A stretch of DNA of 64,000 bases from Dehalococcoidia bacterium (GTDB taxonomy: Bacteria; Chloroflexota; Dehalococcoidia; UBA2979), in the NCBI GenBank assembly GCA_965262725.1, contig OZ253555.1, positions 1,792,001 through 1,856,000 of the forward strand. Direction: 5' to 3'. A program made the position numbers and the translations under genes. Below the pieces are notes generated by a model. The model saw nothing but the letters and a program-made list of their open reading frames with translations, made no database searches and was not told where the DNA came from. Positions within the stretch are counted from its first letter, which is position 1, and each line of letters starts with the position of its first letter. Of this stretch, positions 30,597 to 62,458 are shown piece by piece.

Positions 30597-31458
30597 GTGC
30601 GTCCGGAAGTCGAAGGGGTGGTGACGTGATGACGTGACCGGTCCGGAGACATGCTCGTTGCTGCCAGCCGGTGAGAGTCCGGCACGGGTAACTGTCAGGA
30701 GGCCCGTTAGCAGGTCGGCGGCGTGGACGGGAAACGGTCTGCGTCGAAGCCCGACGTCAAGAGCCCTATGAGGGGGAGCAAACGTGCGGTCCGCAGCATG
30801 ACGCGAAGTCTGCCGCGCCGTGAGACTCGCCTGTCTATTGACAGGACCAAGGAGGAGCCGAGCCCGGGTGGTCAGGGCGAAGGCCATGGACGAGGTGAAG
30901 ATCCTGGAATGCAGCCTCAAGAAACCTCCCGGCGTATGGGACGTGGAACGTACGGAAGGTAGCGACGGGAACCGGAGAAGCCCTCCCCGGCCCGGCACCC
31001 TGTGAGAGGGCGTCGGAGCGAGGCGTCCTATAACCGGTCAGAGCCGGGAAGTGGACAGCCAGCCGGAAGGGTGGCGGAGGGGGTCGTAGTACCGCTGGAG
31101 CCGGACGGACAACATAACCGCCGGTGATGGGAAGGACCCCTACTTTGTCCGTGCATGTTGCTGGGGGTGTGGACTGGTGAGTGCCCCTCGGGGCTAGCAA
31201 CCACTTGGTAGGGTTCGAGGCTCTCCGCACATGCTGTACCGGCTGGCCAAGGCACGACCCACGTTGTGGGGAGCGCTGCATGCCATCTGGTGAAGGGCAT
31301 CGGTGAGCCGGATGAGGGAGAACCTCACGTCCGGTTCGATGTGGCAGGGGCTGGAGACGGACGCTGCTATGGCCGTGGAGTTGGGCACCACCGGGAAACC
31401 GGCTTGGAACTGATGCGCCACCGCCTACGGCTCGCACCGCGCCAGCCCCTGACCCTAC
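30597..31458 (+). mobile_element. ORF-less group II intron, copy 1 (862 nt)
   Basis: 5' GTGCG; domain V GAGCCGGATGAGGGAGAACCTCACGTCCGGTTC (31305-31337, AGC triad); domain VI stem with bulged A31452; ends CCCTAC; no RT ORF; matches 61597-62458; excision restores the host frame. Confidence 0.93.
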
Positions 31459-33267
31459 AACCGCGACGCCCGTGGCATCTGGTCGGACGGCGAGGTGATG
31501 TGGGTGCTGGACGACAGCAGGCGCACGATCTTCACCTACGCGGTCGAGAGCGGGGAGTCCACGGGCGACTACGGGCTCGACTCCAGCAACAGCGAGCCGC
31601 ACGGAATCTGGTCGGACGGCTTCGCGATCTGGGTCTCGGACGGCACGGAGCGCAGGATCTTCGCCTACGTCCAGCAGGGTCAGGGCCTCACGCGCGTCAC
31701 GGACGAGGAGTTCCCCAACACGGTGCTGACGCGGGCCGGCAACAACAGCCCGCGCGGTATCTGGTCCGACGGTGTCCTGATGTACGTGGTCGATGCCCAC
31801 GACGACCGCATCTACACCTACAACATGCCGCCCGCCATCGACGCGCGGCTCGCATCGCTGACCCTGAGCGACGTCGATATCGGGGACTTCTCGAGCTACC
31901 GCACCGGGTACACGGGCGTCTCCGGTGACGGCGTGACGGTGACGACCATCGTCGCCGCCGCGACGCAGCCCGACGCCGCGGTGGAGCCAGCACCCGCTGA
32001 CGAGGACGGCGATGCGCGGAACGGACACCAGGTCGGAACGGCAGGGGATCCCGAGATCACGGTCACCGTGACCTCGCCGGACGGCAGCCGCACCAGAACC
32101 TACCGCGTTCAGATCGAGAGCGCCGAGCCCGGTCCCGTCGTGCCGGAGTGGACGCTCAGCGACTGCCTGAACGGCCTGACCAAGGGCAGCCTGAGCTACG
32201 TGGTGTTCGGGGGTGGGAGCATCGCGGACCTCATGGATTGCTTCCGCGGCCGCAGCGTGGCGGCCCTGTGGGGTAACCCCGACCAGACCTGGATCCCGCT
32301 GGTCTTCGGGGCGCCGCAGTACGTGAACCTCCGCTTCACCGACTACTACGCGGAGGGCATCGCCCCCTTCACGCCCTTCATCGCCTGGCGCGATCTCAGG
32401 GAGCGCCCCGTGGTGCGCCGACGGGCGCCGGTTCAGGACGTGAACGCGCAGCCCTCGTCGGGGACTACGAGCGGCGCGTCGCCGGAGCCGGCGCCCGAGG
32501 CACAGCAGCGGCAAGCGGTCTGGCGCGTGATCGGGAACACGGGCGGCGACGGCGTCTCCCACCGCAACGCCTGCTCGGACGGCGCGCGGCTGTCGAAGAT
32601 CGGTGGCTGGGCGGACGGCACCGAGGTGGAGGTGCTGGAGGAGGGTAGCGGGAACTGCGAGGGCTGGCTGCGGGTGCGTGCGGGCGAGGTGACGTCGTGG
32701 GTGCGCGAGGAGTACCTCGTCGAGCCGGGCGGCGCGGAGCCGGATCCGGCGCCTGAGGCGCAGCAACTGCAAGCGGTCTGGCGCGTGATCGGGAACACGG
32801 GCGGCGACGGCGTCTCCCACCGCAACGCCTGCTCGGACGGCGCGCGGCTGTCGGAGATCGGTGGCTGGGCGGACGGCACCGAGGTGGAGGTGCTGGAGGA
32901 GGGTAGCGGGAGCTGCGAGGGCTGGCTGTGGGTGCGTGCGGGCGAGGTGACGTCGTGGGTGCGCGAGGAGTACCTGGTCGAGCCGGGCGCCGCCTCGCCG
33001 GAGCCGGCGCCCGGGGCACAGCAACAGCAAGCGATCTGGCACATGATTGGGTACACGGGCGGGGACGGCGTCTCTCACCGCGACGTCTGCTCGGACGACG
33101 CGCGGCTGTCGGAGATCGGCGGCTGGGCGGCCGGCACCGAGGTGGAGGTGCTGGAGGAGGGTAGCGGGAGCTGTGAGGGCTGGCTGCGGGTGCGTGCGGG
33201 CGGGGTGACGTCGTGGGTGCGCGAGGAGTACCTCGTCGCGTCAACGATGGGGACGGGCCAGGACTAG
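31459..33267 (+). CDS. Large secreted LRR protein, exon 2 (propeller repeats, beta-sandwich, 3 SH3-like repeats)
   Basis: Begins NRDARGIWSDGEVMWV, completing a repeat like EFDLAEENRAPRGVWSDHETMWV in exon 1; in frame with ORF 31495..33267. Confidence 0.85.
   Translation, partial: NRDARGIWSDGEVMWVLDDSRRTIFTYAVESGESTGDYGLDSSNSEPHGIWSDGFAIWVSDGTERRIFAYVQQGQGLTRVTDEEFPNTVLTRAGNNSPRGIWSDGVLMYVVDAHDDRIYTYNMPPAIDARLASLTLSDVDIGDFSSYRTGYTGVSGDGVTVTTIVAAATQPDAAVEPAPADEDGDARNGHQVGTAGDPEITVTVTSPDGSRTRTYRVQIESAEPGPVVPEWTLSDCLNGLTKGSLSYVVFGGGSIADLMDCFRGRSVAALWGNPDQTWIPLVFGAPQYVNLRFTDYYAEGIAPFTPFIAWRDLRERPVVRRRAPVQDVNAQPSSGTTSGASPEPAPEAQQRQAVWRVIGNTGGDGVSHRNACSDGARLSKIGGWADGTEVEVLEEGSGNCEGWLRVRAGEVTSWVREEYLVEPGGAEPDPAPEAQQLQAVWRVIGNTGGDGVSHRNACSDGARLSEIGGWADGTEVEVLEEGSGSCEGWLWVRAGEVTSWVREEYLVEPGAASPEPAPGAQQQQAIWHMIGYTGGDGVSHRDVCSDDARLSEIGGWAAGTEVEVLEEGSGSCEGWLRVRAGGVTSWVREEYLVASTMGTGQD
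32512..33236 (+). repeat. Three near-identical 258-bp (86-aa) coding repeats
   Basis: Units start at 32512, 32770 and 33028: QAVWRVIGNTGGDGVSHR..GWLRVRAGEVTSWVREEYL. Confidence 0.9.
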
Positions 33268-33417
33268 AGGCCCGGCCGCGCCGGGCGACCCCGGCGGTGG
33301 CCGGTTGGGTGCCGGCGCAGGCGCCCTCGTCTCCACGGAGCGCGCCGCCTGCGGTTGAAGTGTCCCCCCGGCGCGAGCCCACCCTGTCCAGCACCGATTC
33401 GGCCCGAGCGAACGCAC

Positions 33418-34719: not shown

Positions 34720-34832
34720 CTCGAGTTCGCCGATGTCGACGACGCAGAACCCGGGCTCGCGTGCCCGTCGGGACTGATGCCCGCGCGGCTCGCTCAGGAA
34801 GGACGCGAGACGATCGGACAGCAGGACCCGCG

Positions 34833-35831
34833 ATGACCGGCCGCTTCACCATCACCGCTCACACGTCGGCGGACGACGAGCACCTGTCCGCCGTGGCGGA
34901 GATCGTCCAGGGACTGACGGGCGACCCCAAGACCCTGAGCCCGAGATTCCTCTACCACGATGAGGGTTCCCGGCTATTCGACGAGATCACGCGCCTCGAC
35001 GAGTACTACCCCACGCGGGTCGAGCAGTCGTTGCTCGAACGCTTCGGCGCTGAGATCGTCGACGACATTCGACCCAGCGAAATAGTCGAGCTGGGGCCCG
35101 GGAGCGGGGCCAAGAGCGGGATGCTGGTCGGCCCGGGGCTGCGGGCCGGAACACTCGCCCGCTACATCCCCTTCGACATCAGCGAGTCGGCGGTCCGCGG
35201 AAGCGCATCATCGCTGCTCGCGGCGTATCCGTATCTCGACGAGATTGCCGGCGTCGTGGGTGACTTCGGTCGCCACCTCTCCGCCATACCCTCCACACAC
35301 GGAACGCGCCTCATCGCCTTTCTGGGCTCGACGATCGGGAACCTCCATCCCGGCGAGCAGCGCCGACTCCTCGGGGACCTGCGTGGACTGATGGCGCGGA
35401 GCGACGACGCTTTGCTCATCGGCGTGGACCTCGTCAAGGAACGTGCCGTCCTCGAGGCGGCCTACAACGACCGCGAGGGCGTCACGGCCCTCTTCAATCT
35501 CAACTCGCTGAGGGCGGCGAACGATCTGCTGGGGGTCGACATCGACACCGGCCTGTTCAGGCATCGCGCCTTCTTCAATGCCGAGCATTCGCGGATCGAG
35601 ATGCGCCTGGAGGCGAGCGCCGAGGTCTCGTTCACGCTGCCCGCGCGTGGGGACACCGTCCGTGTCCGTGCGGGCGAGACGATCTGGACCGAGAGCTCCT
35701 ACAAGTTCACCAGGGAGGGATTCGCCGAGACGCTGCGCGACTCGGGGTTCGGACGCGCGCGGTGGTACACGGACCCCGAGGAGATGTTCGCGCTCGTGCT
35801 GGCCCGCCCCGGCCCGCCCGAGGCGATCTAG
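34833..35831 (+). CDS. egtD: L-histidine N-alpha-methyltransferase
   Basis: PKTL..Y..GS.LFDEIT.LDEYYPTR, ELGPGSG, FLGSTIGN, AYND..GVT, WTESSYKF. Confidence 0.92.
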   Translation: MTGRFTITAHTSADDEHLSAVAEIVQGLTGDPKTLSPRFLYHDEGSRLFDEITRLDEYYPTRVEQSLLERFGAEIVDDIRPSEIVELGPGSGAKSGMLVGPGLRAGTLARYIPFDISESAVRGSASSLLAAYPYLDEIAGVVGDFGRHLSAIPSTHGTRLIAFLGSTIGNLHPGEQRRLLGDLRGLMARSDDALLIGVDLVKERAVLEAAYNDREGVTALFNLNSLRAANDLLGVDIDTGLFRHRAFFNAEHSRIEMRLEASAEVSFTLPARGDTVRVRAGETIWTESSYKFTREGFAETLRDSGFGRARWYTDPEEMFALVLARPGPPEAI

Positions 35832-38406: not shown

Positions 38407-38410
38407 AGAG

Positions 38411-38881: not shown

Positions 38882-38883
38882 CC

Positions 38884-51171: not shown

Positions 51172-51228
51172 GACGGGCGTCGCCGTCCCGGGCGCCGCAG
51201 GCGAATCGGCCGGGAGGAGGAGCAGGAG

Positions 51229-52083
51229 ATGGCGCTCTCCGGCGTTGACCTGGGCAGCCTGGAGGCCGCCGTCTTCGAGCTCCGCGGCGGGATCGCCGTG
51301 GTCACGCTGAACCGCCCGGAGGCGCTGAACGCCCTCAACAGCGCGATGCACCGGGATATCGCGGCCTGCTGGGAGGAGATCAATCACAACGAGGCGATCC
51401 GCGCCGCGGTGGTCACGGGATCCGGTCGCTTCTTCTGTGCAGGCCGCGACATCAAGGAGTTCGTCGGCACCTACGGGGCCGGTGAAGCCAGGGCGCTGCG
51501 GCCGGTGGACGACCCCGACCACGAGATGTTCGGGGCGACGGTCAACCACTGGCATCTCCGCAAGCCCCTGATCGGCGCCCTCAACGGGCCAGCGGTGGGC
51601 GGCGGGCTCGAGATGGCGATCATGTGCGACATGATCGTGATGGCCGAGGAGGCGTACATCGCCGACCTGCACGCGAAGATCAACGCCGGCGGCATGACCT
51701 CGATGAACACGTTCCTGCCGCCCATGATCGCGCGCGAACTCACGATGACGGACCGCCGCCTCAGCGCCGAGGAGTGCCAGCTCTGGGGCTTCGCGAACGA
51801 CGTCGCGCCCAGGAGCCGCGTGCTAGAGAGGGCACTCGAGCTGGCGGAGGCGACGGCCCGGATGGGCCCCGACTCGATACGGCACCTCAAGCGGGGCTCG
51901 CTGGAGCTCCAGCTCGCCTCCGGGAACATCGCGAGTCCGGAGCGCCACCAGGAACGGCTGCGGACGCTGCGCGAGCGGCGGGCCAGGACGGCCGGCGACC
52001 GCGACCTGATGGAGGGGATGAAGGCCTTCGTCGAGAAGCGCGGAGCACGGTACGAGCGCCCCGTCGGGGGTGGCCGGGGATAG
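51229..52083 (+). CDS. Enoyl-CoA hydratase/isomerase family protein
   Basis: LNRPEALNAL, FCAGRD, KPLIGALNG.AVGGGLE, EGMKAFVEKR. Confidence 0.88.
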   Translation: MALSGVDLGSLEAAVFELRGGIAVVTLNRPEALNALNSAMHRDIAACWEEINHNEAIRAAVVTGSGRFFCAGRDIKEFVGTYGAGEARALRPVDDPDHEMFGATVNHWHLRKPLIGALNGPAVGGGLEMAIMCDMIVMAEEAYIADLHAKINAGGMTSMNTFLPPMIARELTMTDRRLSAEECQLWGFANDVAPRSRVLERALELAEATARMGPDSIRHLKRGSLELQLASGNIASPERHQERLRTLRERRARTAGDRDLMEGMKAFVEKRGARYERPVGGGRG

Positions 52084-52147
52084 CGAGGCCGGCCGGCGCG
52101 ACGCCCGCAGGGGCGCGAGCCGGCCCAAATGGGGAGGACGTGGCAAC

Positions 52148-53125
52148 GTGGTCAAGCTCATCGACGTGCATCGCCATCTCTGGGGGTTCGACTGGTTCCC
52201 ACCCAGCCACCTCCCGAAGCTCACCGCCGAGTCGCTCGCCCGGCGGACGGGGCGCACCGTCGAGCAGGTGATGGAGCGGATCCGGCAGTCGCCGACGATG
52301 GAGCCGTCGGGGGCGGGCGCCGTCTCCGAGATGGAGCACTACGGGATCGACCATTCGGTCATCCAGACGCTCGACTGGGGACTCGCCTACGGACCGGAGG
52401 AGGACAACCAGCTGGATGTGGAGGAGTTCCACCGGCTCACCTACGAGGCGGCGGCGCGCCATCCCGGGAAGCTGTGGGCAATGTGCGGCGTCGATCCGCG
52501 CCGGCCGCGCGCCGTCGCGTTCTTCGAGGATTGCGTCAAGAACCAGGGGGCCGTCGGCCTCAAGGTCTATCCACCCAACGGCTACCAGGCGAACGACGAG
52601 CGCTGCTTCCCGATGTACGAGAAGGCAATAGAGCTGGATGTCCCCGCGCTCATACACACGGGCGGGAACATCTGGGCGTGGGCCGAGTGGGTGGAGCTGG
52701 TGGCCCGCCGCTACCCCGATCTGCGCATCATCATGGGTCACGCGAACCTCTCGGGGCCCTTCGAGAGCGGGACCTACTGGCGCGGACTGATCGCCGCCTC
52801 GAACAAGCGCAACGTGTGGCTCGATCTCACCGACTGGCAGGTCACCGGTGCCGTCGACGGGGACAACATCCCGCAGCTTCTCAGGGTGATCCGCATATTC
52901 CTCGACCGTGTCGGCCCCGACCGCATCGTCTGGGGGACCGATCTGCCGCAGGCCGGTGTCGGGAGCCGCGCCCGCGGCAGGACCGAGACCTGGACCGACA
53001 TCTTCAAGAACCTCCCGGACTGGGGGGCGCGGCACGGGATCGACTTCACGGAGGAGGAGCGCGACGGGATCTGCTTCCGGGCCGCCGAGCAGGCCTTCAG
53101 CAATGTCGACTTCGACGCGACGTAG
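52148..53125 (+). CDS. Amidohydrolase family protein (Amidohydro_2)
   Basis: IDVHRH, GLKVYP, LIHTG, IMGHA, IVWGTD.P; GTG after GGAGG. Confidence 0.85.
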   Translation: MVKLIDVHRHLWGFDWFPPSHLPKLTAESLARRTGRTVEQVMERIRQSPTMEPSGAGAVSEMEHYGIDHSVIQTLDWGLAYGPEEDNQLDVEEFHRLTYEAAARHPGKLWAMCGVDPRRPRAVAFFEDCVKNQGAVGLKVYPPNGYQANDERCFPMYEKAIELDVPALIHTGGNIWAWAEWVELVARRYPDLRIIMGHANLSGPFESGTYWRGLIAASNKRNVWLDLTDWQVTGAVDGDNIPQLLRVIRIFLDRVGPDRIVWGTDLPQAGVGSRARGRTETWTDIFKNLPDWGARHGIDFTEEERDGICFRAAEQAFSNVDFDAT

Positions 53126-53175
53126 ATCGTGGGGAGCGCTGCATCCCATAGGCCGCAGGCGGGGAGGGTAGCCCG

Positions 53176-55560
53176 GTGACGGATCACCCGATCGCCGGCA
53201 CGGTCGTCCTCGACTTGAGCGAGGGCGTCGCCGGCGGCTACGGCTCGTGGCTGCTCGCCTCGCTCGGGGCGCGCGTCCTCAAGGTCGAGCCTCCCGGCGG
53301 GGAGCGGCTGCGCCGGCTGGGTCCCTTCCCGGGCGATAGGCCCGACCCCGAGCGGGGCGGGCTGCACCTCGCCCTCAACGCCGGCAAGGAGAGCGTCGTC
53401 CTGGACCTGCGGAACGCCTCCGGACGGCGCGAGCTGGGGCGGCTCCTCGACTCGGCGGAGATCCTGATCGAGTCGGCGGGATCCGGCGCGATGGATGCGC
53501 TCGGTCTCGGCTACCGCGAGCTCTCGGCGGAGCGCCCGGCGCTCGTCTGGGCCTCTCACTCGCCCTTCGGCCTGGAGGGGCCCTACGCCGGACGCCTGGG
53601 TTCTGAGATCGTCGACTACGCGATGGGTGGCTGGATGTACTTCTGCGGGGAGCCGGGGCGGCCCCCGCTGATGGTTCCCGGCTACCAGGCGGAACTCCAC
53701 GCCGGGATGCAGCTCGCCGCCGGCTCGCTGGCGGCGCTCTGGCACGCGCGCCGCTCCGGCGCCGGGCAGCGCGTCGACGTGTCGACCTTCGAGTCGATGG
53801 TGAGCGCGCACGTGTTCCTGTTCTCGAACTGGATGCAGGAGGGCAAGGTGGAGCGGCGGCGGGGCACGACGCTGCTTGCCTGCGCGGACGGCCTGCTGCT
53901 TCTGACCTACCCGCGGCCTCAGCTCTACGCGCTGATAGGCGAGCCGGAGCGGGCCGACGACCCGCGGTGGGAGGATCCGTCCCGCTTGGCCGAGGCGGAG
54001 GATGAGATGCTCGGGCGGGTCGCGGGATGGGTGGCGAACCGGACGAGGGCGGAGGTGCACGAGCGCGCCCAGGAGATCCGCGTCCACTCGCTGACCCCCG
54101 TCGATTCGGTCGAGGAGCTCGCCGCCTCGCCGCAGCTCGCGTTCCGCGGGTGGTGGCGGAGCGTCGAGCATCCGCTGGCCGGAGCCCTCGAGCTCCCCGG
54201 GCCGCCGTGGATGATGTCGCGGAGCCGGACCGGCACGGACATTCCGGCGCCCCGGCTGGGGGCCCACGACGCCGTCGGCGAGGCCGGGGCGCGGTCCCGG
54301 GCCGGAGGCGGGGGCACATATCCATTCAGTGGGCTTCGGGTGGTCGAGGTGACGAACAGCTGGGCGGGTCCTCTCTGCGGGATGCACTTCGCCGACCTCG
54401 GGGCGGACGTGATCGTGGTGGATCCCCCGGTCGCGCAGGCCACCCGTTCGTGGCACTTCCCGGCCGGGCAGAGCTGGCCGCGCGCCTACGACCGCGGGCA
54501 CGGCTTCCACCAATTCAACCGCAACAAGCGCGGAGTCTCCTTCGAGCTGACGACCGACGGGGGCCGGGAGCTCTTCCTGCGGCTGATCGAGACCGCCGAC
54601 GTGCTCATCGAGAACAACAGCCCCGGCGTGTTCCCGCGGCTCGGTCTGCCCTTCGATGTACTGGAGCGCCGCAACCCGCGGCTGATCAGTTGCTCGATCC
54701 CGGCCTTCGGATCGGAGGGACCGTTCGCACCATACCGGGCGGCCGGCTCGAATATGGAGGCGACGACGACGGTGGTCTCGCGCACCGGCTACGGGCCCGG
54801 GGAGCTCGAGGCCACCGGTTCCTTCCACACCGATCCGATCGGGGGCACGCACGCGACGATCGGCATCATCGCCGCGCTGCTGGAGCGAGAGCGAAGCGGG
54901 CTCGGGCAGCACATCGAAGTGCCGCTTCTGGAGAGCGGCGCGATCTTCGCCATCGACTCGCTGATGGACTACCGGCTCAACGGGCGGATCGCGGGTCCTC
55001 TCGCGAACCGCTCAGAGCGCTGCGCGCCGCAGGGCGCGTACCGCTCCGCGGGCGACGACTGCTGGCTCGCGCTGGCCGCTGAGACCGACGACCAGTGGCG
55101 CCGGCTCTGCGCCGTGGTGGAGCGTCCCGAACTGGCCGAGCGCTTCCCCACCGTCGAGGCCCGCCGGGCGGCGCACGATGAGATTGACCGGGCAATCGAG
55201 GGCTGGAGTGTGGGCCTCGATCACAACGAGGCGGCGCGGCGCCTGCAGGCGGCGGGCGTGTCGGCGGGTCCCGTTCTCGCGAACTGGGAACTCGTCGGCG
55301 ATCCGCACCTCCACGAGCGCGGCTACTGGGTCGACACGGTGCATCCCGAGGTGGGCTACCAGCGCTACGAGGGTCTCCCCTGGAAGCTGTCACGGACACC
55401 GCCCGCGACGAGAGCCCGGCCCGCTCCGCTCTTCGGGCAGCACAACGCGGACGTGATCGTGGGGGACCTCGGTCTCGACGAGGCGCATCTTGCGACGCTT
55501 CGCGAGTCCGGCGCCGTCCTGGACGCGCCCCGCAGCCTGCGCGTGATGCCGCGCCGGTAG
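53176..55560 (+). CDS. Family III CoA-transferase (CaiB/BaiF), tandem double-domain form
   Basis: Two domains: LGARVLKVEPP..LNAGKES and WAGP..ADLGADV..NRNKRG; C-terminal APLFGQHN. Confidence 0.88.
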   Translation: MTDHPIAGTVVLDLSEGVAGGYGSWLLASLGARVLKVEPPGGERLRRLGPFPGDRPDPERGGLHLALNAGKESVVLDLRNASGRRELGRLLDSAEILIESAGSGAMDALGLGYRELSAERPALVWASHSPFGLEGPYAGRLGSEIVDYAMGGWMYFCGEPGRPPLMVPGYQAELHAGMQLAAGSLAALWHARRSGAGQRVDVSTFESMVSAHVFLFSNWMQEGKVERRRGTTLLACADGLLLLTYPRPQLYALIGEPERADDPRWEDPSRLAEAEDEMLGRVAGWVANRTRAEVHERAQEIRVHSLTPVDSVEELAASPQLAFRGWWRSVEHPLAGALELPGPPWMMSRSRTGTDIPAPRLGAHDAVGEAGARSRAGGGGTYPFSGLRVVEVTNSWAGPLCGMHFADLGADVIVVDPPVAQATRSWHFPAGQSWPRAYDRGHGFHQFNRNKRGVSFELTTDGGRELFLRLIETADVLIENNSPGVFPRLGLPFDVLERRNPRLISCSIPAFGSEGPFAPYRAAGSNMEATTTVVSRTGYGPGELEATGSFHTDPIGGTHATIGIIAALLERERSGLGQHIEVPLLESGAIFAIDSLMDYRLNGRIAGPLANRSERCAPQGAYRSAGDDCWLALAAETDDQWRRLCAVVERPELAERFPTVEARRAAHDEIDRAIEGWSVGLDHNEAARRLQAAGVSAGPVLANWELVGDPHLHERGYWVDTVHPEVGYQRYEGLPWKLSRTPPATRARPAPLFGQHNADVIVGDLGLDEAHLATLRESGAVLDAPRSLRVMPRR

Positions 55561-55579
55561 GGGAGAGATTGCGGGCGCT

Positions 55580-56365
55580 CTAGCGGCCGCGGCGTCGCTG
55601 ACGGCGGGCGTAGGAGCGGATCGCGCGCAGAAAGTCGATACGGCGGAATGCCGGCCAGAAGGCGTCGCAGAAGTAGTACTCGCTGTATGCGCTTTGCCAG
55701 AGCATGAACCCGGACAGCCGCAACTCCCCGGACGTGCGAATCACGAGGTCCGGATCGGGCACGTCCGGCGCGTAGAGGTAGCGGGCGATCTCCTCGGCGT
55801 CGAGGACGCGCGCGACATCCTCGAGCGAGTCGCCGCGCTCTAGGTGGTCGACGACCAGGCGGCGGACCGCGTCCACGATTTCGTCGCGCCCGCCGTATCC
55901 AACCGCCACGAGCAGGTCGCCGCCCGTGTTCGCGGCGGTCACCTGCTCCACGCGCTCGATGGCCCCGATCGTCGACTCGGGCAGCAGGTCCCGGCGGCCG
56001 ACCGCCCGGATGCGCCGCGGCAGCGCCGCCCGGCGCTGCTGTTCGGCGAGGCCCTCAACTCGCGTTTCCACGATCTCGAAGATGGCGTCGAGCTCGGCAG
56101 GGGGGCGCTGGAAGTTCTCCGTCGAGAGCACCCAGATCGTGACGACCCTGATGCCCAGTTCGTCGCACCAGCCGATCAGCCGCTCGACGTTATCCGCACC
56201 CTCGCGGTGTCCATCTCCGACCCGTGCGAGACTAGATGTCCGCGCGAAGCGGCGGTTGCCGTCGGGCAGGATGCCGACGTGTTGCGGGATCGCGCCTCGG
56301 CGAACATCCGCCTCGAGCTGTCGCTCGTAGTAGCGATAGACGAGCCCGAGCAGCATCCGCAGCAT
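55580..56365 (-). CDS. uppS: cis-isoprenyl diphosphate synthase (UppS family)
   Basis: HVGILPDGNRR, LSTENF.R, GYGGRDEI, DLVIRTSGELRLSGF. ATG 56365 follows GGGAGG; an alternative in-frame ATG is at 56506. Confidence 0.88.
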   Translation of the reverse strand: MLRMLLGLVYRYYERQLEADVRRGAIPQHVGILPDGNRRFARTSSLARVGDGHREGADNVERLIGWCDELGIRVVTIWVLSTENFQRPPAELDAIFEIVETRVEGLAEQQRRAALPRRIRAVGRRDLLPESTIGAIERVEQVTAANTGGDLLVAVGYGGRDEIVDAVRRLVVDHLERGDSLEDVARVLDAEEIARYLYAPDVPDPDLVIRTSGELRLSGFMLWQSAYSEYYFCDAFWPAFRRIDFLRAIRSYARRQRRRGR

Positions 56366-56668
56366 GTGCGCGCCTCCCCGCTTGCGGCGTGCGAACAGTC
56401 GGAGACTGTGCGTGGCCTGGAGCGGAAGGTAGCGAGTCGCGGCCCCCCACGGAAATTGCGCGGCCGCATGATCGTGAGAACCGACTCGCCGGTGCGGCTG
56501 GCTCATCCTTCTCTCTCCGGTCGATTCCTGGACGGGTGGCGCGCGTACGAAGACGTTCGGTCGACATAACCTGGCGGAGACGGCGGAGGCTGCCGGCCGC
56601 CTTGAGAGAACTCCCGGGGCGGGGCATAGTCGCATCGTCGGGCGTCTGCACGGGGCGGGGGAGAGCAC

Positions 56669-57496
56669 ATGGCTGGACTGACTCTGACTGGAATCGAGAA
56701 CAAGGTAGCGGTGGTCACCGGCGCGGGCCGCATGAAGAGTATCGGGCGAAGCATCGCCGTCGAGCTCGCCAAGGCGGGAGCCGACGTTGCCATCACGGGC
56801 ACGGGGCGTCCGCCCGAGCGCTACCCGGACGACGAGAAGGCCGCTGGCTGGCGCGATGTCGCCTCGGTCGCCGAGGAAATCGAGGCCGCCGGGCGAAGGG
56901 CCCTGCCCCTCGTGAGCGACGTTGGCGACGAGGGTTCCGTGCGCGACCTCCTCGACCGCACGCTCGCCGAGTTCGGGCGCGTGGACTTCATCGTGAACAA
57001 CGCCGGCGCCGCCCGCGGCCCCGACCGAGTCCCTGTTGTCGACATGCCCGTCGATGTCTGGGACACGGTGCTGCGCGTCAACCTGCGGGGCGCATTCCTC
57101 ATGTCGAAGGTCTTTGGCCAGCAGCTCATAGATGCCGGGAACGGTGGCGCTATCGTCAACATCTCCTCGATCGGGGGGAAGATGCTCGGCCCGAACGCTG
57201 CCGCCTACGTCGCGAGCAAGGCCGGCCTCCAGGGGCTGACCGGCTCCATGGCTCAGGAGATCGGGTGCCACGGTGTTCGCGTGAACGCCATCTGCCCCGG
57301 GTTCGTCGATACGTCGCGCGTGGCCGACCTCTTCGATGATCCGGAGTTCGACGCCCGCGTCGCGCGCATCCCGCTCGGGCGCGTCGGCCTCGGCGAGGAC
57401 GTCGGCTGGGCGGCCGTCTACCTCTGTAGTGATCAGGGCTCGTGGATCACGGGCCAGTCCATCAACGTGTGCGGGGGCGCCGCGGTCGCGCGTTGA
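56669..57496 (+). CDS. SDR family oxidoreductase
   Basis: VVTGAGR..SIG, VNNAG, NISS, YVASK, VNAICPG, ITGQ. Confidence 0.92.
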   Translation: MAGLTLTGIENKVAVVTGAGRMKSIGRSIAVELAKAGADVAITGTGRPPERYPDDEKAAGWRDVASVAEEIEAAGRRALPLVSDVGDEGSVRDLLDRTLAEFGRVDFIVNNAGAARGPDRVPVVDMPVDVWDTVLRVNLRGAFLMSKVFGQQLIDAGNGGAIVNISSIGGKMLGPNAAAYVASKAGLQGLTGSMAQEIGCHGVRVNAICPGFVDTSRVADLFDDPEFDARVARIPLGRVGLGEDVGWAAVYLCSDQGSWITGQSINVCGGAAVAR

Positions 57497-57743
57497 CCGG
57501 CGAGCGCGCTCCCCTGCAAGCGGTGGTCGGTGGCGACGCGCATCACTGATGCTGCCGGCGTGAAGCTGCTGCCGACCGCAACATAAGATGGTGGAGGCAG
57601 GAGGAGGCTCGGGCCCTCCAGAACCAGGGCATCTGCGGCGCCGCTCAGGGTCGGAGTCGGGCTGGGCCCGCACGATCCCGTACGGGTTCAGGGCTGGCGT
57701 GCCTGGTCGAGACTGGACCCGCGCTGACGTTCGTCGCTTCACG

Positions 57744-59697
57744 TTGTGTATCGGCCCGAGGCTACCTTACCCCGGATCCAGAGCGCCAGGCTAACTGGCG
57801 AGTAGGCAGGAGGTGGAAGTCCTCTATGGCAAAGAGCTAGCCACTCATGTCATTCCGCGAGCCGTGCGCGGGTCGTCGCGAGGCGGCTTGTGAAGCGTCG
57901 GCAGCGGGGTGTGCGGGCGGGGCTAATGAGCATCGAAAGGGCCATTTGGGGTGCCGAGGCTCTTGGATTGGTCGAAGGCAATACCGGCGACGGCGCTACT
58001 GGCGAGTCGTGGTCGGGCCCCACGGTGTCGAAGACCCCATGCACGCACACACGTCTATCGCCGGGACTTGGGAGAGCTGCGCGTTGTCCCGACGAGTCGT
58101 ACGCCGGGACCGCGTCGGGAAGGGACGTAAACCGTAGCCGATGATGAACGATGCGCAGCAGTCTGATGGGGCCGTACGAGCGATGAAGGCGGCGAACAAG
58201 GGGGCGCGAGCCCCGGCGGAGTCGCTGGAGCAAAGGGCCCCAACCGAGAGGAATCCTCAAAGCACCGGCACGGTCCGGACGCAGAGTCGGGGTGCGGTGT
58301 CACCCGGAGCGGAGAGGATACGGCAGTTCGTGGAACGGAAGCCGGGAGAGAAACTCACCGCGCTCTTGCACCACATCACGCCGGAGGCGCTGCGGGAGGC
58401 GTATCTCGCGTTGAAGCGGGATGCGGCTCCGGGCGTGGACGGGGTGAGGTGGCGAGAATACGGGGACGGGCTGGACGAGCGATTGCTCGACCTGCATGGC
58501 CGCGTACACCGTGGAGCGTACCGGGCGAAGCCCGTCAGGCGGGTAGAGATACCCAAGCCGGACGGGGGAATACGGCCGCTCGGTATCGTCTCGCTGGAGG
58601 ACAAGATCGTTCAGCGGGCGGTGGTGGACAATCTTTTGAACCCGATTTACGAGTCGGGCTACTACGGCTTCTCGCATGGCTTCAGGCCGGGGCGTTCGGC
58701 GCATGACGCGCTGGACGCACTGGCCTACGCGGTCGAACGGCGCAAGGTCAGCTGGATTGTCGAGGTGGACATCCGGGAGTTCTTCGGCAGCATCGACCGG
58801 GGGCGGCTGATGTCGTTTCTGGAGATGCGCATCGGGGACCAGCGGGTGTTGCGCCTGATACGAAAGTGGCTGAGCGTCGGCGTCATGGACGCGGAGCCGG
58901 AAGTCGATTTCGTGCGGGGGATGCCGCAGGGGGCGCCGATATCGCCGCTGCTTGCGAACGTGTACCTGCACAACGTGCTCGACGACTGGTTTGCGCGCGA
59001 GTGGCGACCGCGGGAGGTCCGGGGCGAGGCGTACATCGTGCGGTATGCCGATGACTTCGTCCTGGGGTTCCAGCACCGCAGCGATGCGGTGCGGTTCATG
59101 GAGGCACTCCGGGAGCGGTTCGCGGCCTACGGGCTGGAGCTGCACCCGGAGAAGACCCGTCTACTTGAGTTCGGCAGGTTCGCGCTGGCGAACAGGCGGA
59201 AGCGCGGGGAGGGCCGACCGGAGACGTTCGACTTTCTCGGCATGACGCACTACTGCCGGACCCGACGCGACGGGAGATTCGGGCTGGGGCGCAAGCCCGT
59301 TGCGAAGCGGATGCGCCGGACGCTGAAGGCCATCAAGGCCGAGTTGTGGCGGCGCATGCACGACAACCCCGTGACGACGGGGCAGTGGCTGGGGCGGGTA
59401 CTGCGTGGGTGGCTTGGCTACTACGCGGTGCCGACCAGCTCGCCGGCGCTCACGCGGTTTGTTCGTTTCGTGAAGCGGCTCTGGCTGCGCGTTCTCCGAC
59501 GGCGGTCGCAGCGCGACCGTTTCACGTGGGAGCGCATCCTTGCCCTGTGCCAGAAACACTGGCCCCGAATCTCCATCCTTCACCCGTGGCCTGCGGAGCG
59601 ATTTGCCGTCACGCACTTGAGGTAGGAGCCGGATGCCCGAGAGGGCACGTCCGGATCTGTGCGGGGGGTGCCGGGCAACCGGCATCCCTACCGCGAA
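57744..59697 (+). mobile_element. Full-length group II intron (bacterial class E-like); ends uncertain by 1-2 nt
   Basis: 5' TTGTG; RT ORF; domain V GAGCCGGATGCCCGAGAGGGCACGTCCGGATC directly after the stop; domain VI with bulged A59690; ends CCGCGAA. Confidence 0.85.
58141..59625 (+). CDS. ltrA: Group II intron reverse transcriptase/maturase (no endonuclease domain)
   Basis: TALLHHI, APGVDG, IPKPDG..RPLGI, GFRPGRS.HDAL, PQGAPISPLLAN.YL, RYADDF, FDFLG, domain X GWLGYY. Confidence 0.95.
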   Translation: MMNDAQQSDGAVRAMKAANKGARAPAESLEQRAPTERNPQSTGTVRTQSRGAVSPGAERIRQFVERKPGEKLTALLHHITPEALREAYLALKRDAAPGVDGVRWREYGDGLDERLLDLHGRVHRGAYRAKPVRRVEIPKPDGGIRPLGIVSLEDKIVQRAVVDNLLNPIYESGYYGFSHGFRPGRSAHDALDALAYAVERRKVSWIVEVDIREFFGSIDRGRLMSFLEMRIGDQRVLRLIRKWLSVGVMDAEPEVDFVRGMPQGAPISPLLANVYLHNVLDDWFAREWRPREVRGEAYIVRYADDFVLGFQHRSDAVRFMEALRERFAAYGLELHPEKTRLLEFGRFALANRRKRGEGRPETFDFLGMTHYCRTRRDGRFGLGRKPVAKRMRRTLKAIKAELWRRMHDNPVTTGQWLGRVLRGWLGYYAVPTSSPALTRFVRFVKRLWLRVLRRRSQRDRFTWERILALCQKHWPRISILHPWPAERFAVTHLR

Positions 59698-61340
59698 CCG
59701 GTGACCGGTGTTGAGCCGTGCGGAGGAGCGCGAAGCGGCCGTCGTGTGAGGTGCGGGAGCCGTTTGTGACTCCCGGAGGAGTGCGCGGCGCTGTCCGGGG
59801 CGTGTGATCAGCAGGGGAGACCGGCGCGGAGGCGATTGCGGACAGGCGGGCGCGCGGCGCTGGTCCGCGAGCGGCGAGGGGGAGCGGCGTCAGGTCGGGA
59901 GCGGGAGCGCGCGCAGCCGTGCGAGGGCATCGGTGAAGTGACCGGCCCATGGCCAGCGCGCCGGCAGATGGAGCGTGAACCGACGAGCAGAGCGGGTCAG
60001 CCGCCCGACGAGAGCGAAGAGCCGCCGCCGGAGCGTCCGGGTGGTGACGATGCGCTCGCCGAGCCCGAGCCGCGCCGTCCAGCGAGCGAGATTGTGGGCG
60101 ATCACCTGGACCGCGAGCCAGGCGCCGTTGGCGGCGAAGCGGCCGGACGGCAGGTGATTGAGCCCCACGCCGTACTTCAGGTCGCGGATCGCGTTCTCGA
60201 CCTCGGCGTGGCGGCGATGGTCGGCCTCCAGTTCGAGCGTCTCCCCGTCGCGGTCGGTGATGAAGGCGTGGTAGCTATACGTCGCGAAGAGAGCGAGCTG
60301 CGAACCAGGCGTCGGCCGCACGCGCCGGACGATGAGCCGCACCGGGACGGCGTCCGGCGCGTGTGCGAACGGCGTGTAGGTCGTCTCTGAGACATCGGCG
60401 CCGCCCTCCAGCCAGTACGGGATCGGCGTCCACTCCTGTTCGGGAATCGCCTCGGTCAGCTTCCGCAGCTTCGGATGCTGGCGGATCGTGACCGAGAAGC
60501 GGACATCCATCTCGCGGCAGGCAGCGACCACCGCGCGGGAGTAGAAGCCGCTGTCGGCGCGCACCGTGAGTTGCCCGTTCGCTCCGGCATCGCGGACTCG
60601 ACCCACCGTCTCCTGTAGGAAGTGGGCGGCGCCCCGGCCGCTGTACGCACGACCCCCGCGCAGCCGGGCCATCAGCACGTCACCCGTCCCGGCCGCCACC
60701 GCGAGCAGCGGGTGATAGCCGCGCGCACCGGTGTAGCCGGGGCGCTGCGCCCCCTCCTTGGCGAAGCCGTAGGTCTCGCACACCGTCGAATCGAGGTCGA
60801 TGGTGAATGGCGCCTCGCCGGGTCCGGCCCCGGCGGCCCAGGCGCGGGCAAGCAGCGCGCGACTGACGCGGTCGAGCTGGCGGACGTGGCCCCAGCGGAA
60901 ACTGCGTAGGAAGGTGCCGAGCGTGGATGGCGCCTTGACGGTGCATCCGAGAACGCGCTCTGTGCCGCCGGCGCGCAACGCATCGGCATCGTCGATGCAG
61001 TCGCCGCCCGCTAGCACGGAGGCGACGAGTGTCGCGACCTTGTCTCCCGCGTTCGCCCTGCCCGGTGCGTCGCCGAGGTCGAGGTGACGGTCGACCAGCT
61101 CCCGCAGGCCGAGACGTTCGGCGAGCGTGGCCGGCAGGAGCAGACCCGCGTGGGCCACCAGGCGGTCGTCGTCGAAGGCGATCGAGAGCCGGGCGGGGCT
61201 GCTCGGTGATAGCATCGAATGGGTGCTCCCTGTTTCCGGTGGATCGTTCGCTTCACGACCATTCTCCCAGATTCAGAGGAGCACCCAATTCCCTCTCTTC
61301 GCGACTGCATCCACGCTCTCCTTCGGTGCATCCGGGCTTA
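59698..61340 (-). mobile_element. IS1380 family insertion sequence (left boundary not resolved)
   Basis: Transposase plus a probable terminus TTCGGTGCATCCGGGCTTA ending near 61340. No clean matching inverted repeat seen at the other end. Confidence 0.55.
59890..61215 (-). CDS. IS1380 family transposase
   Basis: LVAHAGL, APSTLGTFLR, IDLDST, GYHPL, VRADSGFY, HRRHAEVENAIRDLK, LPSGRFAAN, LHLP..WPW. Confidence 0.92.
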   Translation of the reverse strand: MLSPSSPARLSIAFDDDRLVAHAGLLLPATLAERLGLRELVDRHLDLGDAPGRANAGDKVATLVASVLAGGDCIDDADALRAGGTERVLGCTVKAPSTLGTFLRSFRWGHVRQLDRVSRALLARAWAAGAGPGEAPFTIDLDSTVCETYGFAKEGAQRPGYTGARGYHPLLAVAAGTGDVLMARLRGGRAYSGRGAAHFLQETVGRVRDAGANGQLTVRADSGFYSRAVVAACREMDVRFSVTIRQHPKLRKLTEAIPEQEWTPIPYWLEGGADVSETTYTPFAHAPDAVPVRLIVRRVRPTPGSQLALFATYSYHAFITDRDGETLELEADHRRHAEVENAIRDLKYGVGLNHLPSGRFAANGAWLAVQVIAHNLARWTARLGLGERIVTTRTLRRRLFALVGRLTRSARRFTLHLPARWPWAGHFTDALARLRALPLPT

Positions 61341-61382
61341 CGGTGCTCGAGTCAGCCGGCGACCAGCGTTGGGTGGGACATC

Positions 61383-61596
61383 GTGTCGGTGTTGGCCCGG
61401 GGAGCCGCGCGACCGACGAGGCACGCACGCGTCTTCGTGATCGCGCTCCGCTCGACGTGGCTCGAGATGCGCACGCGCTCCGAGTTCATCTCCACGCTCG
61501 GGAACGGCGTGCCCCGCTTCGCCGTTCTCGCCTGGATCGCGGGTCAGAGCGAGGATTCGAGCGTGGTCGCGACCGTATCGGTCGGGATCGTGCTGC
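61383..61596 (+). CDS. ABC-2 type transporter permease, exon 1
   Basis: GTG 61383; ..RFAVLAWIAG..VATVSVGIVL plus 1 nt; interrupted at phase 1 by intron copy 2. Confidence 0.75.
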
Positions 61597-62458
61597 GTGC
61601 GTCCGGAAGTCGAAGGGGTGGTGACGTGATGACGTGACCGGTCCGGAGACATGCTCGTTGCTGCCAGCCGGTGAGAGTCCGGCACGGGTAACTGTCAGGA
61701 GGCCCGTTAGCAGGTCGGCGGCGTGGACGGGAAACGGTCTGCGTCGAAGCCCGACGTCAAGAGCCCTATGAGGGGGAGCAAACGTGCGGTCCGCAGCATG
61801 ACGCGAAGTCTGCCGCGCCGTGAGACTCGCCTGTCTATTGACAGGACCAAGGAGGAGCCGAGCCCGGGTGGTCAGGGCGAAGGCCATGGACGAGGTGAAG
61901 ATCCTGGAATGCAGCCTCAAGAAACCTCCCGGCGTATGGGACGTGGAACGTACGGAAGGTAGCGACGGGAACCGGAGAAGCCCTCCCCGGCCCGGCACCC
62001 TGTGAGAGGGCGTCGGAGCGAGGCGTCCTATAACCGGTCAGAGCCGGGAAGTGGACAGCCAGCCGGAAGGGTGGCGGAGGGGGTCGTAGTACCGCTGGAG
62101 CCGGACGGACAACATAACCGCCGGTGATGGGAAGGACCCCTACTTTGTCCGTGCATGTTGCTGGGGGTGTGGACTGGTGAGTGCCCCTCGGGGCTAGCAA
62201 CCACTTGGTAGGGTTCGAGGCTCTCCGCACATGCTGTACCGGCTGGCCAAGGCACGACCCACGTTGTGGGGAGCGCTGCATGCCATCTGGTGAAGGGCAT
62301 CGGTGAGCCGGATGAGGGAGAACCTCACGTCCGGTTCGATGTGGCAGGGGCTGGAGACGGACGCTGCTATGGCCGTGGAGTTGGGCACCACCGGGAAACC
62401 GGCTTGGAACTGATGCGCCACCGCCTACGGCTCGCACCGCGCCAGCCCCTGACCCTAC
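61597..62458 (+). mobile_element. ORF-less group II intron, copy 2 (862 nt)
   Basis: Line-by-line match to 30597-31458 from GTGCG to CCCTAC; flanks unrelated; no target-site duplication. Confidence 0.93.

What the first reader, a model, noticed from the sequence alone, without database searches (positions are those of the whole stretch)
30597..62458. Two identical ORF-less group II introns inserted in unrelated protein-coding genes: a spreading non-autonomous intron
Seen: 30597-31458 and 61597-62458 match over 862 nt by eye. Each starts GTGCG, has an intact domain V and a branch-point domain VI, ends AC, encodes no RT, and has no target duplication. Both are in the sense strand of a CDS (phase 0 and phase 1) and both excise to give a continuous frame. 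Knowledge: bacterial group II introns usually carry their own RT/maturase and tend to sit in mobile DNA or intergenic sites; ORF-less multi-copy forms need a maturase in trans. Inference: a recently active, trans-mobilised mini-intron that colonises ordinary genes. Two copies in 64 kb suggest many more genome-wide, giving an intron-rich bacterial genome reminiscent of models for spliceosomal intron spread.
Basis: partly seen in the sequence, partly recalled or inferred. Interest (0 to 1): 0.92.

Follow-up and report, generated by a model that had tools for sequence, protein, structure and literature searches.

The report
Spreading ORF-less group II mini-intron
The two identical 862-base elements are real copies of a reverse-transcriptase-less group II intron that has recently multiplied to 28 copies in this bacterium, mostly by inserting into the reverse-transcriptase gene of its own larger relatives, a rare but already described way for such introns to spread.

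Summary
Window 30597-31458 and 61597-62458 are 100% identical over 862 nt. Each is a complete ORF-less group II intron lying in the sense strand of a real gene, an LRR/cadherin surface protein and an ABC-2 permease. The insertions are precise, with no target duplication. Genome-wide there are 28 copies: 24 identical and 4 later broken by IS elements or another intron. Sixteen sit at one 'home' site inside the RT-coding sequence of two related full-length introns, B (12 of 12 occupied) and C (3 of 3). These are twintrons, and they leave no cognate RT gene uninterrupted. Twelve copies are ectopic. The 11 intact ectopic copies comprise 5 sense in coding sequences, 1 in the nadK leader, 3 antisense to genes and 2 unresolved. 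Ectopic sites match the intron's EBS1/EBS2 guides (9 of 11 against 3.3% background). Orientation follows the replication fork (10 of 11), not host transcription. The element is a single 1,220-nt ORF-deletion derivative. The closest precedents are Thermosynechococcus TeI3/TeI4 and the Methanosarcina nested introns. Splicing and trans-mobilisation remain untested, because no RNA data were available.

The parts
30597..31458 (+). Mini-intron copy A (862 nt, ORF-less group II intron)
61597..62458 (+). Mini-intron copy B, identical to copy A
   Evidence: Boundaries fixed by ungapped alignment to empty-site homologues
30824..30829 (+). EBS2 (GACUCG, intron nt 228-233). The same element in copy B is at 61824-61829
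   Evidence: Covariation with each relative's own 5' exon. Site scoring
30868..30872 (+). EBS1 (GUGGU, intron nt 272-276). In copy B it is at 61868-61872
31305..31337 (+). Domain V. In copy B it is at 62305-62337
   Evidence: RF00029 37.5 bits, RF04357 D5 30.7 bits. Fold
31343..31454 (+). Extended domain VI with bulged branch-point A at 31452. In copy B it spans 62343-62454 with the A at 62452
   Evidence: fold, z = -4.34
27798..30596 (+). 5' exon of host gene A (LRR, SWM-repeat and cadherin domains). The intron is at phase 0. IBS1 is 30592-30596 (CCCGC, 4/5). IBS2 is 30581-30586 (CGAGTT, 6/6, displaced 2 nt)
31459..33267 (+). 3' exon of host gene A (cadherin-like domain). The excised product is 1,535 aa
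61355..61596 (+). 5' exon of host gene B (ABC-2 permease), start uncertain. The frame is open from 61029, but homology to orthologues begins at about 61355. The intron is at phase 1. IBS1 is 61592-61596 (GCTGC, 5/5). IBS2 is 61583-61588 (CGGGAT, 5/6)
62459..63060 (+). 3' exon of host gene B (ABC2_membrane family)
57771..59700 (+). Third, unrelated-type group II intron with an intact RT ORF (58141-59625, 494 aa). It is a possible but distant alternative helper, 37.7% identical to the B RT
59890..61215 (-). DDE transposase (IS) between the third intron and host gene B (context)
63062..63844 (+). Second ABC-2 permease gene directly downstream of host gene B (context)

Best explanation
The 862-nt element is a non-autonomous group II intron. 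It is a IIB-like ribozyme that lost its RT/maturase gene through one 1,220-nt deletion in domain IV. Its retrohoming site lies inside the RT-coding sequence (DIASCFESIP|HDRLM) of two related full-length introns in the same genome, B and C, where it forms twintrons. It has filled every such site. Most likely the B/C-type RT/maturase binds the mini-intron RNA in trans and helps it splice. That protein has no endonuclease domain and can only be translated after the mini-intron has been spliced out of its mRNA. The resulting lariat RNP reverse-splices into single-stranded DNA at replication forks, wherever an 11-nt match to EBS2 (GACUCG) and EBS1 (GUGGU) is exposed on the lagging-strand template, and nascent lagging-strand DNA primes cDNA synthesis. 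Besides the home site this has produced 12 ectopic insertions, including the two in the window. Those two lie in the sense strand only because their host genes are co-oriented with replication. Shown: identity and structure of the element, the deletion origin, the guide-target complementarity, the strand bias, the saturation of the RT genes, and precise insertion into genes that are uninterrupted in relatives. Inferred: splicing in vivo, which RT acts, and the priming mechanism.
For: The genome holds 24 exact copies plus 4 interrupted ones. The mini-intron equals the G003-type intron with one deletion: nt 1-664 match G003 1-659 at 83% and nt 666-862 match G003 1880-2073 at 90%. The home site is identical at 13 copies in 12 B introns and 3 copies in 3 C introns. 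All 12 of 12 B and 3 of 3 C RT ORFs are split at residue 197/198, and the only RT ORFs continuous at that position are 37-40% identical. EBS1 and EBS2 were located by covariation: each of six related introns pairs with its own 5' exon, EBS1 at 4-5 of 5 positions in 6 of 6 introns and EBS2 at 5-6 positions in 5 of 6 (my reading of the alignment). Nine of 11 intact ectopic sites reach IBS1 >=4/5 and IBS2 >=5/6, against 3.3% of 200,000 random genome positions. The IEP has RVT_1 and GIIM domains only, with no endonuclease domain. Ori lies near 0.41 Mb with dnaA at 0.478 Mb, and ter near 2.52 Mb. Ten of 11 solo copies, 10 of 12 B and 3 of 3 C have their sense strand on the lagging-strand template, and the one solo exception is 14 kb from ter. 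A head-to-tail tandem pair at one home site fits re-insertion guided by the 5' exon alone. Empty sites were found in same-genus genomes for copy B and for the DUF429-gene copy. The exact element was found in none of the 40 other related genomes searched.
Against: There is no RNA evidence, since no listed run is on record as RNA, so splicing in vivo is unproven. None of the interrupted host genes is clearly essential. The nadK copy lies 19 nt upstream of the ATG, with the SD downstream of the intron, so it does not force splicing. Three ectopic copies are antisense and simply disrupt their genes. Because every cognate RT gene is interrupted, the proposed helper faces a chicken-and-egg problem. 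No intact autonomous parent with the mini-intron's own EBS was found in this genome or as an exact match in two public collections. Perfect identity of 24 copies could be inflated by polishing of a repeat in the assembly. The Rfam DV-DVI score is 2.5 bits below the gathering score. Contigs from four public runs gave no listed joint across copy B, so no intron-less allele was seen.
Confidence: 0.78

Rival explanations
1. The helper is not the B/C RT but the distantly related RT of the other abundant intron family (the window's third intron type), whose genes are intact. Alternatively the mini-intron self-splices and needs an RT only for mobility.
For: At least 11 copies of that RT are continuous across the region equivalent to the mini-intron's home site. 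At least 6 full-length introns of that type are 99.4-99.9% identical, so they have been recently active. Every B/C RT gene is interrupted.
Against: That RT is only 37.7% identical to the B RT. Its intron matches a different Rfam D1-D4 family, RF02005 rather than RF02003. In the T. elongatus system, trans-action was shown among IEPs that are 84-100% identical (Mohr 2010, passages read). Cross-family maturase action is, from my own knowledge, not the rule.
Confidence: 0.14
2. The copies are relics of a past burst and are no longer mobile or spliced. Their identity is maintained by gene conversion among repeats, and sense-strand copies in genes are simply tolerated knock-outs.
For: Four copies are already broken by IS elements or another intron. 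Antisense insertions show that gene disruption is tolerated. No essential gene is interrupted within its coding sequence.
Against: There are no differences among 24 copies (20,688 nt in total) at unrelated loci. The six clean B composites also differ by 0-1 nt in the 5 that were compared. A tandem re-insertion exists, and related genomes lack the element. Together these point to very recent activity.
Confidence: 0.06
3. Assembly or polishing artefact: a repeat was wrongly placed or homogenised in a single-contig assembly.
For: Perfect identity of all copies. The genome is a single contig with 91.55% estimated completeness.
Against: Each ectopic copy has exact intron boundaries and an upstream sequence complementary to EBS1/EBS2, which an assembler would not create. 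In run X1 the summed contig depth over the intron (934-1282) is about 25 times that of the unique flanking contigs (33-38), although the tool warns that depth is not a copy number.
Confidence: 0.02

Closest known systems
Thermosynechococcus elongatus TeI3 (ORF-less) / TeI4 (RT-encoding) group II introns (Mohr, Ghanem & Lambowitz 2010, PMC2882425; passages read)
   Same: The ORF-less introns derive from one ORF deletion and keep N- and C-terminal ORF remnants. There are many identical copies with good EBS/IBS pairing at new sites. The inner ORF-less intron inserts at a conserved site in related RT-encoding introns, forming twintrons. Insertion into other mobile elements is preferred, and mobilisation in trans by related IEPs is proposed (there it was shown experimentally).
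   Different: In T. elongatus the inner intron sits between the first two ATGs, so the IEP can be made without splicing it, and two TeI4 introns have continuous ORFs. Here the insertion is inside the RT domain (TIGR04416 profile position about 137/140 of 353) and all 15 cognate RT genes are occupied. The intron lineage and host differ (70.6% GC genome). The nearest RT relatives are labelled Actinomycetota, and the IEP has no endonuclease domain. A strong replication-strand bias is seen here. [quoted passage not shown]
Nested group II introns of Methanosarcina acetivorans (as described in Zimmerly & Semper 2015, PMC4424553, passages read; the original Dai & Zimmerly paper on ORF-less and RT-encoding archaeal introns homing into related intron ORFs is recalled by title only and was not read)
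   Same: [quoted passage not shown]
   Different: [quoted passage not shown] Here there are in addition 12 ectopic copies, several of them in host protein-coding genes.
RmInt1-type endonuclease-less introns of Sinorhizobium meliloti, and the lagging-strand bias reported across bacterial group II introns (Miura et al. 2022, PMC8919778, passages read; the RmInt1 mechanism is from my own knowledge and from abstracts listed)
   Same: The IEP has RT and maturase domains only. Insertion orientation is tied to the replication fork, and the home target lies in another mobile element.
   Different: RmInt1 is autonomous. Miura et al. state that low-GC-skew phyla such as Actinobacteriota showed no strand bias for non-class-C introns and that few Actinobacteriota genomes have 10 or more introns. 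This genome has 59 domain V/VI matches and a clear bias. The host phylum was not established here.

Membership tests
Group II intron ribozyme | Conserved 5' GUGYG and 3' AY termini | tested here: met
   The element starts GTGCG and ends CTAC (exact ends fixed by empty-site alignment)
Group II intron ribozyme | Domains I-IV matching a curated covariance model | tested here: met
   RF02003 group-II-D1D4-4, 102.8 bits against gathering score 49, full model 1-138
Group II intron ribozyme | Domain V (34-nt catalytic hairpin) and domain VI with a bulged branch-point A | tested here: met
   RF00029 scores 37.5 bits, 2.5 below the gathering score of 40, because DVI carries a long insertion. The DV part alone aligns with high posterior probability. 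The fold shows the DV hairpin and a bulged A 7 nt from the 3' end, z = -4.34
Group II intron ribozyme | EBS1/EBS2 loops in domain I complementary to the 5' exon (IBS1/IBS2) | tested here: met
   Covariation across six related introns and their own exons. The home site pairs at 5/5 and 6/6. Nine of 11 ectopic sites pass, against 3.3% background
Group II intron ribozyme | Splicing (self- or maturase-assisted) with exon ligation | not testable with these tools
   No run on record as RNA. Contigs gave no listed joint across the intron
ORF-less, trans-mobilised group II intron (TeI3-like) | No RT/maturase ORF; derived from an ORF-containing intron by deletion in domain IV | tested here: met
   The longest sense frame is 83 aa. 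A single 1,220-nt deletion separates it from the G003 intron
ORF-less, trans-mobilised group II intron (TeI3-like) | Closely related IEP-encoding introns in the same genome | tested here: met
   B (12 copies; 86% and 89% identical in the 5' and 3' ribozyme parts) and C (3 copies; 79-81%). All of their RT ORFs are interrupted by the mini-intron itself
ORF-less, trans-mobilised group II intron (TeI3-like) | Several copies at different sites that each fit the intron's EBS | tested here: met
ORF-less, trans-mobilised group II intron (TeI3-like) | Splicing and mobility promoted by an IEP supplied in trans | not testable with these tools
   Needs a mobility assay or RNA data
Twintron | One group II intron lies wholly inside another, with exact intron boundaries | tested here: met
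   Removing the 862 nt from B restores a 461-aa stop-to-stop RT frame carrying RVT_1 and GIIM. The G003 relative has the same RT motif uninterrupted
Twintron | Sequential splicing of the inner and then the outer intron | not testable with these tools
   No RNA data
Named bacterial IEP class (A-F, CL, ML, g1...) | Phylogenetic placement of the IEP with class reference sequences | not tested
   No reference set was at hand. Established here: the IEP has no endonuclease domain, and the nearest relatives are labelled Actinomycetota

The most novel reading that the evidence does not exclude
The mini-intron and its helper form a self-referential circuit. The parasite has occupied the catalytic-domain coding sequence of every cognate RT/maturase gene (15 of 15). 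Maturase can therefore be made only from transcripts in which the parasite has already been spliced, and that splicing itself needs maturase. Such a loop would be an all-or-none, heritable on/off switch for intron mobility. It would also mean one shared trans-acting splicing factor now serves introns that sit in ordinary host genes, giving a living bacterial model of the step from selfish retroelement to a dispersed intron population served by a common splicing apparatus. A further layer exists: a second intron family homes into domain V of this family, in 3 of 3 copies seen across two genomes.
Probability: 0.25. Interest if true: 0.72.

Novelty: new member of a known kind. Interest (0 to 1): 0.5.

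Why it matters
[quoted passage not shown] This genome offers a second, independent natural example in a different intron lineage and a 70.6% GC host. It carries a heavier load: 59 domain V/VI matches in all, and by my rough sum about 2% of the genome. The mini-intron has 24 sequence-identical copies, so it is very recent or still active. It also shows features that make hypotheses testable. All helper RT genes are interrupted inside the RT domain. Insertion orientation is set by the replication fork. Five fresh sense-strand insertions lie in coding sequences whose intron-less orthologues exist in sister genomes. If splicing is confirmed, the system would be a convenient model for how a common trans-acting splicing factor can support intron spread into genes. 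If splicing does not occur, it is simply a mutagenic retroelement burst.

Tried and rejected
RNA evidence: the look-up of sequencing runs listed 23 runs from several studies, and no holder is on record as RNA.

Empty-site alleles: read laying on window 50001-64000 with contigs of X1, X5, X7 and X10 listed no joint 61596->62459. Seventy-eight further joints were not shown, and no listed contig bridges either intron boundary by 31 letters. This says nothing about intron-less alleles or splicing. A joint 58047->59652 seen in three runs has sides of only 24-34 letters and would remove part of domain V, so I treat it as unreliable.

NAD kinase as proof of splicing: rejected. The gene is single-copy, but homology to orthologues starts at the ATG 19 nt after the junction and GGAGGA lies between them. 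The intron is therefore in the leader.

First guess for EBS1 (GCGGU in the 11-nt loop at intron nt 183-193): rejected. That segment is shared by B and G003, whose exons differ. Covariation places EBS1 at nt 272-276.

Twintron in another genome: locus L108 looked as if its RT ORF carried a 1-kb insert, but the extra span is a second, weak RT hit. None of the 80 fetched loci shows two mini-like 5' ends.

Autonomous parent or other hosts: exact-pattern scans for the deletion junction and for the EBS2 hairpin found nothing in metagenome contigs or viral contigs. Records of the window's own genome may be left out of those collections.

Host phylum: the protein-atlas look-up of NadK gave Chloroflexota, Actinomycetota and Gemmatimonadota clusters at 0.96-0.97, so the phylum is left undetermined.

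Two ectopic sites (C1:1963038, low GC with only short ORFs; C1:2536486, no Pfam hit) were not resolved. IEP class assignment was not attempted. Paper supplements were not consulted; the T. elongatus supplementary figures and the Miura et al. supplementary tables may bear on copy-number and insertion-site comparisons.


Full report
OBSERVATION. Window 30597-31458 and 61597-62458 are identical at all 862 positions, and the flanking sequences are unrelated. Rfam's group-II-D1D4-4 model matches both copies over its full length at 102.8 bits, against a gathering score of 49. With permissive thresholds the domain V-VI model RF00029 matches 31303-31458 at 37.5 bits, 2.5 bits under its gathering score. 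The shortfall comes from a long insertion in domain VI; the domain V part aligns cleanly. The element begins GTGCG and ends CTAC. The last 162 nt fold into a domain V hairpin (31305-31337) and a long domain VI (31343-31454) with a bulged A at 31452, 7 nt from the 3' end. The fold energy is -85.6 kcal/mol, z = -4.34, and 0 of 200 shuffles fold as well. The longest sense-strand frame is 83 aa, so there is no RT gene. The exact 31,000-nt spacing is not suspicious: 1 of 276 copy pairs has a spacing that is a multiple of 1000, against 0.28 expected.

HOST GENES IN THE WINDOW. Copy A lies at phase 0 in a 1,535-aa gene (27798-30596 plus 31459-33267). The gene has LRR, SWM-repeat and cadherin domains upstream and a cadherin-like domain downstream. 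GC3 periodicity is in the same register on both sides. Of 40 tblastn HSPs between the computed excised protein and paralogues in the same genome, 23 span the junction by at least 20 residues on each side. Copy B lies at phase 1 in an ABC-2 permease. With the intron removed in silico, the flanks align without a gap across the junction to uninterrupted genes in same-genus genomes G003 (88% over 116 nt) and G001 (85% and 78%). This fixes the intron boundaries and shows there is no target duplication. Homology to these orthologues starts at about window 61355, so the real start is probably there rather than at 61029. A second ABC-2 permease follows at 63062-63844. Upstream lie a DDE transposase (59890-61215, minus strand) and a third, RT-encoding group II intron of a different Rfam type (57771-59700; RF02005, 170 bits; RT ORF 58141-59625).

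GENOME-WIDE PICTURE. The window is C1:1792001-1856000 of a single-contig genome of 3,674,403 bp with 70.6% GC. The 862-mer occurs 24 times without a single difference. Four further copies are interrupted: two by a 2,628-nt IS with terminal inverted repeats, one by a 1,208-nt IS, and one by another intron. Thirteen copies, including a head-to-tail tandem pair, share one upstream flank. They lie inside 12 copies of a related 2,074-nt intron, here called B, which is 86% identical to the mini-intron over nt 1-551 and 89% over nt 666-862. Three more copies lie at the homologous site in 3 copies of a 79-81% related intron, C. Removing the mini-intron from B restores a 461-aa stop-to-stop frame carrying RVT_1 and the group II maturase domain. 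The insertion is at phase 1 in DIASCFESIP|HDRLM, between profile positions 137 and 140 of TIGR04416. A tblastn of that computed protein against the genome shows all 12 of 12 B and 3 of 3 C RT genes split at residue 197/198. The only RT frames continuous at that position are 37-40% identical and belong to the third-intron family. Six B+mini composites have the clean length of 2,935-2,936 nt, and the five of equal length differ by 0-1 nt. All 12 B copies sit at one target (…GAGATATCCGGYGAGGTTG|TCAARGATCTGG…) about 40 nt inside a repeat whose downstream part has 28 genome matches. The nesting is therefore repeat <- B <- mini-intron. In all, RF00029 finds 59 domain V/VI matches in the genome.

ORIGIN. 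The mini-intron aligns to an uninterrupted 2,073-nt intron of same-genus genome G003 over nt 1-664 (83%) and nt 666-862 (90%). The two blocks correspond to G003 nt 1-659 and 1880-2073, so there was one clean deletion of 1,220 nt inside the ORF, with N-terminal ORF remnants retained. G003's RT has the same FESIPH motif uninterrupted. The exact mini-intron was found in none of the 40 other related genomes searched, and 4 of them hold related introns. The RT lineage is common in public genomes labelled Actinomycetota: 524 stretches were confirmed as relatives of the query and the best 80 were kept as loci. None of those 80 loci shows a nested mini-intron. The host's own phylum was not settled.

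TARGET RECOGNITION. I aligned the first 340 nt of six distinct relatives (mini, B, C, and introns of G003, G008 and G018) and compared each with its own 5' exon. Two variable segments covary with the exons. The first is nt 272-276 of the mini-intron (GUGGU), which pairs with exon positions -5 to -1 (ACCGC). B has CAAUU against GGUUG, G008 has GGGAU against AUCCC, and C, G003 and G018 each pair at 4 of 5. The second is nt 228-233 (GACUCG), which pairs with -14 to -9 (CGAGUC). C has GAGUCC against GGACUC, B has CGGAUA against UAUCCG, G003 has AGCCA against UGGCU, and G018 has UGGUG against CACCA. G008 shows no clear match. These segments are EBS1 and EBS2 in the canonical order. Scoring all sites, the home site pairs at 5/5 and 6/6. 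Of the 11 intact ectopic sites, 9 reach IBS1 >=4/5 and IBS2 >=5/6, allowing IBS2 to shift by -2 to +3 nt. Only 3.3% of 200,000 random positions do so. Window copy A scores 4/5 and 6/6 with IBS2 displaced by 2 nt. Copy B scores 5/5 (2 Watson-Crick pairs) and 5/6. The tandem pair fits re-insertion at an occupied site, because only the 5' exon is needed for recognition.

ORIENTATION. Cumulative GC skew has its minimum at 410,248 and its maximum at 2,522,220, and dnaA lies at 478 kb. Ten of 11 solo copies, 10 of 12 B and 3 of 3 C have their sense strand on the strand that is the lagging-strand template. The single solo exception lies 14 kb beyond the skew maximum. The pattern relative to host genes is mixed:

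- Sense in coding sequence (5): the RNase T-like exonuclease, another intron's RT, the LRR/cadherin gene, the ABC-2 permease, and a DUF429-like gene.
- Sense in a leader (1): the nadK copy, 19 nt upstream of the ATG.
- Antisense (3): between HisKA and HATPase_c of a histidine kinase, in a phosphotriesterase, and between the SD and the start codon of an IS630-type transposase.
- Unresolved (2).

The B/C IEP has no endonuclease domain. From established knowledge of endonuclease-less group II introns, which use nascent strands at replication forks as primers (stated in Zimmerly & Semper 2015, passage read), the strand bias is what such a mechanism predicts. Sense orientation in the two window genes is therefore a by-product of those genes being co-oriented with replication.

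MECHANISM AND ITS WEAK POINTS. The best-supported reading is a non-autonomous intron spliced and mobilised in trans by the B/C maturase. It homes efficiently into the RT genes of B and C and occasionally retrotransposes to look-alike sites. Splicing, the identity of the helper, and priming are all inferred. No RNA run was available and the contig laying was uninformative. No essential gene is interrupted within its coding sequence, so nothing forces the conclusion that splicing is efficient. Because all cognate RT genes are occupied, the helper can only be made from already-spliced mRNA. That implies self-splicing, carry-over of protein, or help from the distant third-intron RT (rival 1).

COMPARISON WITH WHAT IS KNOWN. 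Mohr et al. 2010 (PMC2882425, passages read) describe 17 ORF-less TeI3 introns derived from one ORF deletion. They describe twintrons in which identical ORF-less introns sit in TeI4 introns, preferential insertion into mobile elements, and trans-mobilisation by 'driver' IEPs. There the inner intron lies between two start codons, two RT genes are continuous, and few introns lie in genes. Zimmerly & Semper 2015 (PMC4424553, passages read) state that ORF-less introns are rare in bacteria and nearly always accompany related IEP-encoding introns. They also state that bacterial twintrons lie outside housekeeping genes, and that Methanosarcina introns home repeatedly into other introns. Miura et al. 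2022 (PMC8919778, passages read) report lagging-strand bias for several IEP types including ORF-less introns, and that few Actinobacteriota genomes have 10 or more introns. I therefore file it as a new member of a known kind. Its distinctive features are complete occupation of the helper RT genes inside the RT domain, a clear replication-strand bias, and several fresh insertions in host genes.

VERDICT. The element is a genuine, recently amplified ORF-less group II intron and a good candidate model system, but it is not a new principle. Interest 0.5.

Noticed in passing
G000:C1:734423-736345 (outside the window); L141:379-2296 and L142:6171-8086 (G008): A 1,923-nt RT-encoding intron variant sits inside domain V of one mini-intron copy (mini nt 722/723). 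In G008, a different genus of the same family, two B-like introns each carry a 92.7%-identical element at exactly the same domain V position. So 3 of 3 copies seen of this variant are in the catalytic domain V of the B/mini family, which makes it an intron that appears to home into another intron's ribozyme core. Its ~85% relatives, including window 57771-59700, use a different target (…TAAGCCCTGATCCA|CCGAAG…).
   Followed up: partly
window 57771-59700: Third group II intron (RF02005, 170 bits) with an intact 494-aa RT. There are at least 6 full-length copies at 99.4-99.9% identity elsewhere in the genome, and several copies are interrupted at the position equivalent to window 58198-58200.
   Followed up: partly
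G000:C1:549500-551223: Two mini-intron copies lie in direct head-to-tail tandem at one home site inside a B intron. This probably reflects re-insertion at an already occupied site.
   Followed up: no
G000:C1:3058073-3059230 and its matches in G001-G003: Matches to the DUF429-like host gene of one ectopic copy carry 1-2 in-frame TAG (and one TGA) in three same-genus genomes, and several paralogue matches do too. The cause is unexplained. They could be pseudogenes, alignment through frameshifts, or something else.
   Followed up: no
window 59808-61208: Summed contig depth over the DDE transposase region is about 10^4-10^5 in three of four public runs, against about 40-60 on unique flanks. This IS, or close relatives of it, is therefore very abundant in those samples (Pfam DDE_Tnp_1_4).
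   Followed up: no
window 58047-59652: Contigs of three runs show a joint that skips 1,604 nt of the third intron, roughly its RT ORF. The sides are only 24-34 letters and the joint would cut into domain V, so it may be spurious.
   Followed up: no
G000, whole genome: The genome carries a heavy mobile-element load besides the introns: a 2,628-nt IS with terminal inverted repeats (14 near-full copies), a 1,208-nt IS (17 copies), and a repeat with 28 matches that is the target of the B intron. There are also many weak Bac_DnaA-family (AAA) hits, which probably come from IS helper ATPases.
   Followed up: no
window 27798-33267 and paralogues: Host gene A belongs to a large paralogous family of very long LRR/cadherin-repeat proteins. 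A 200-aa piece of it has 60 matches in this genome, in open frames of up to 7,300 aa.
   Followed up: no
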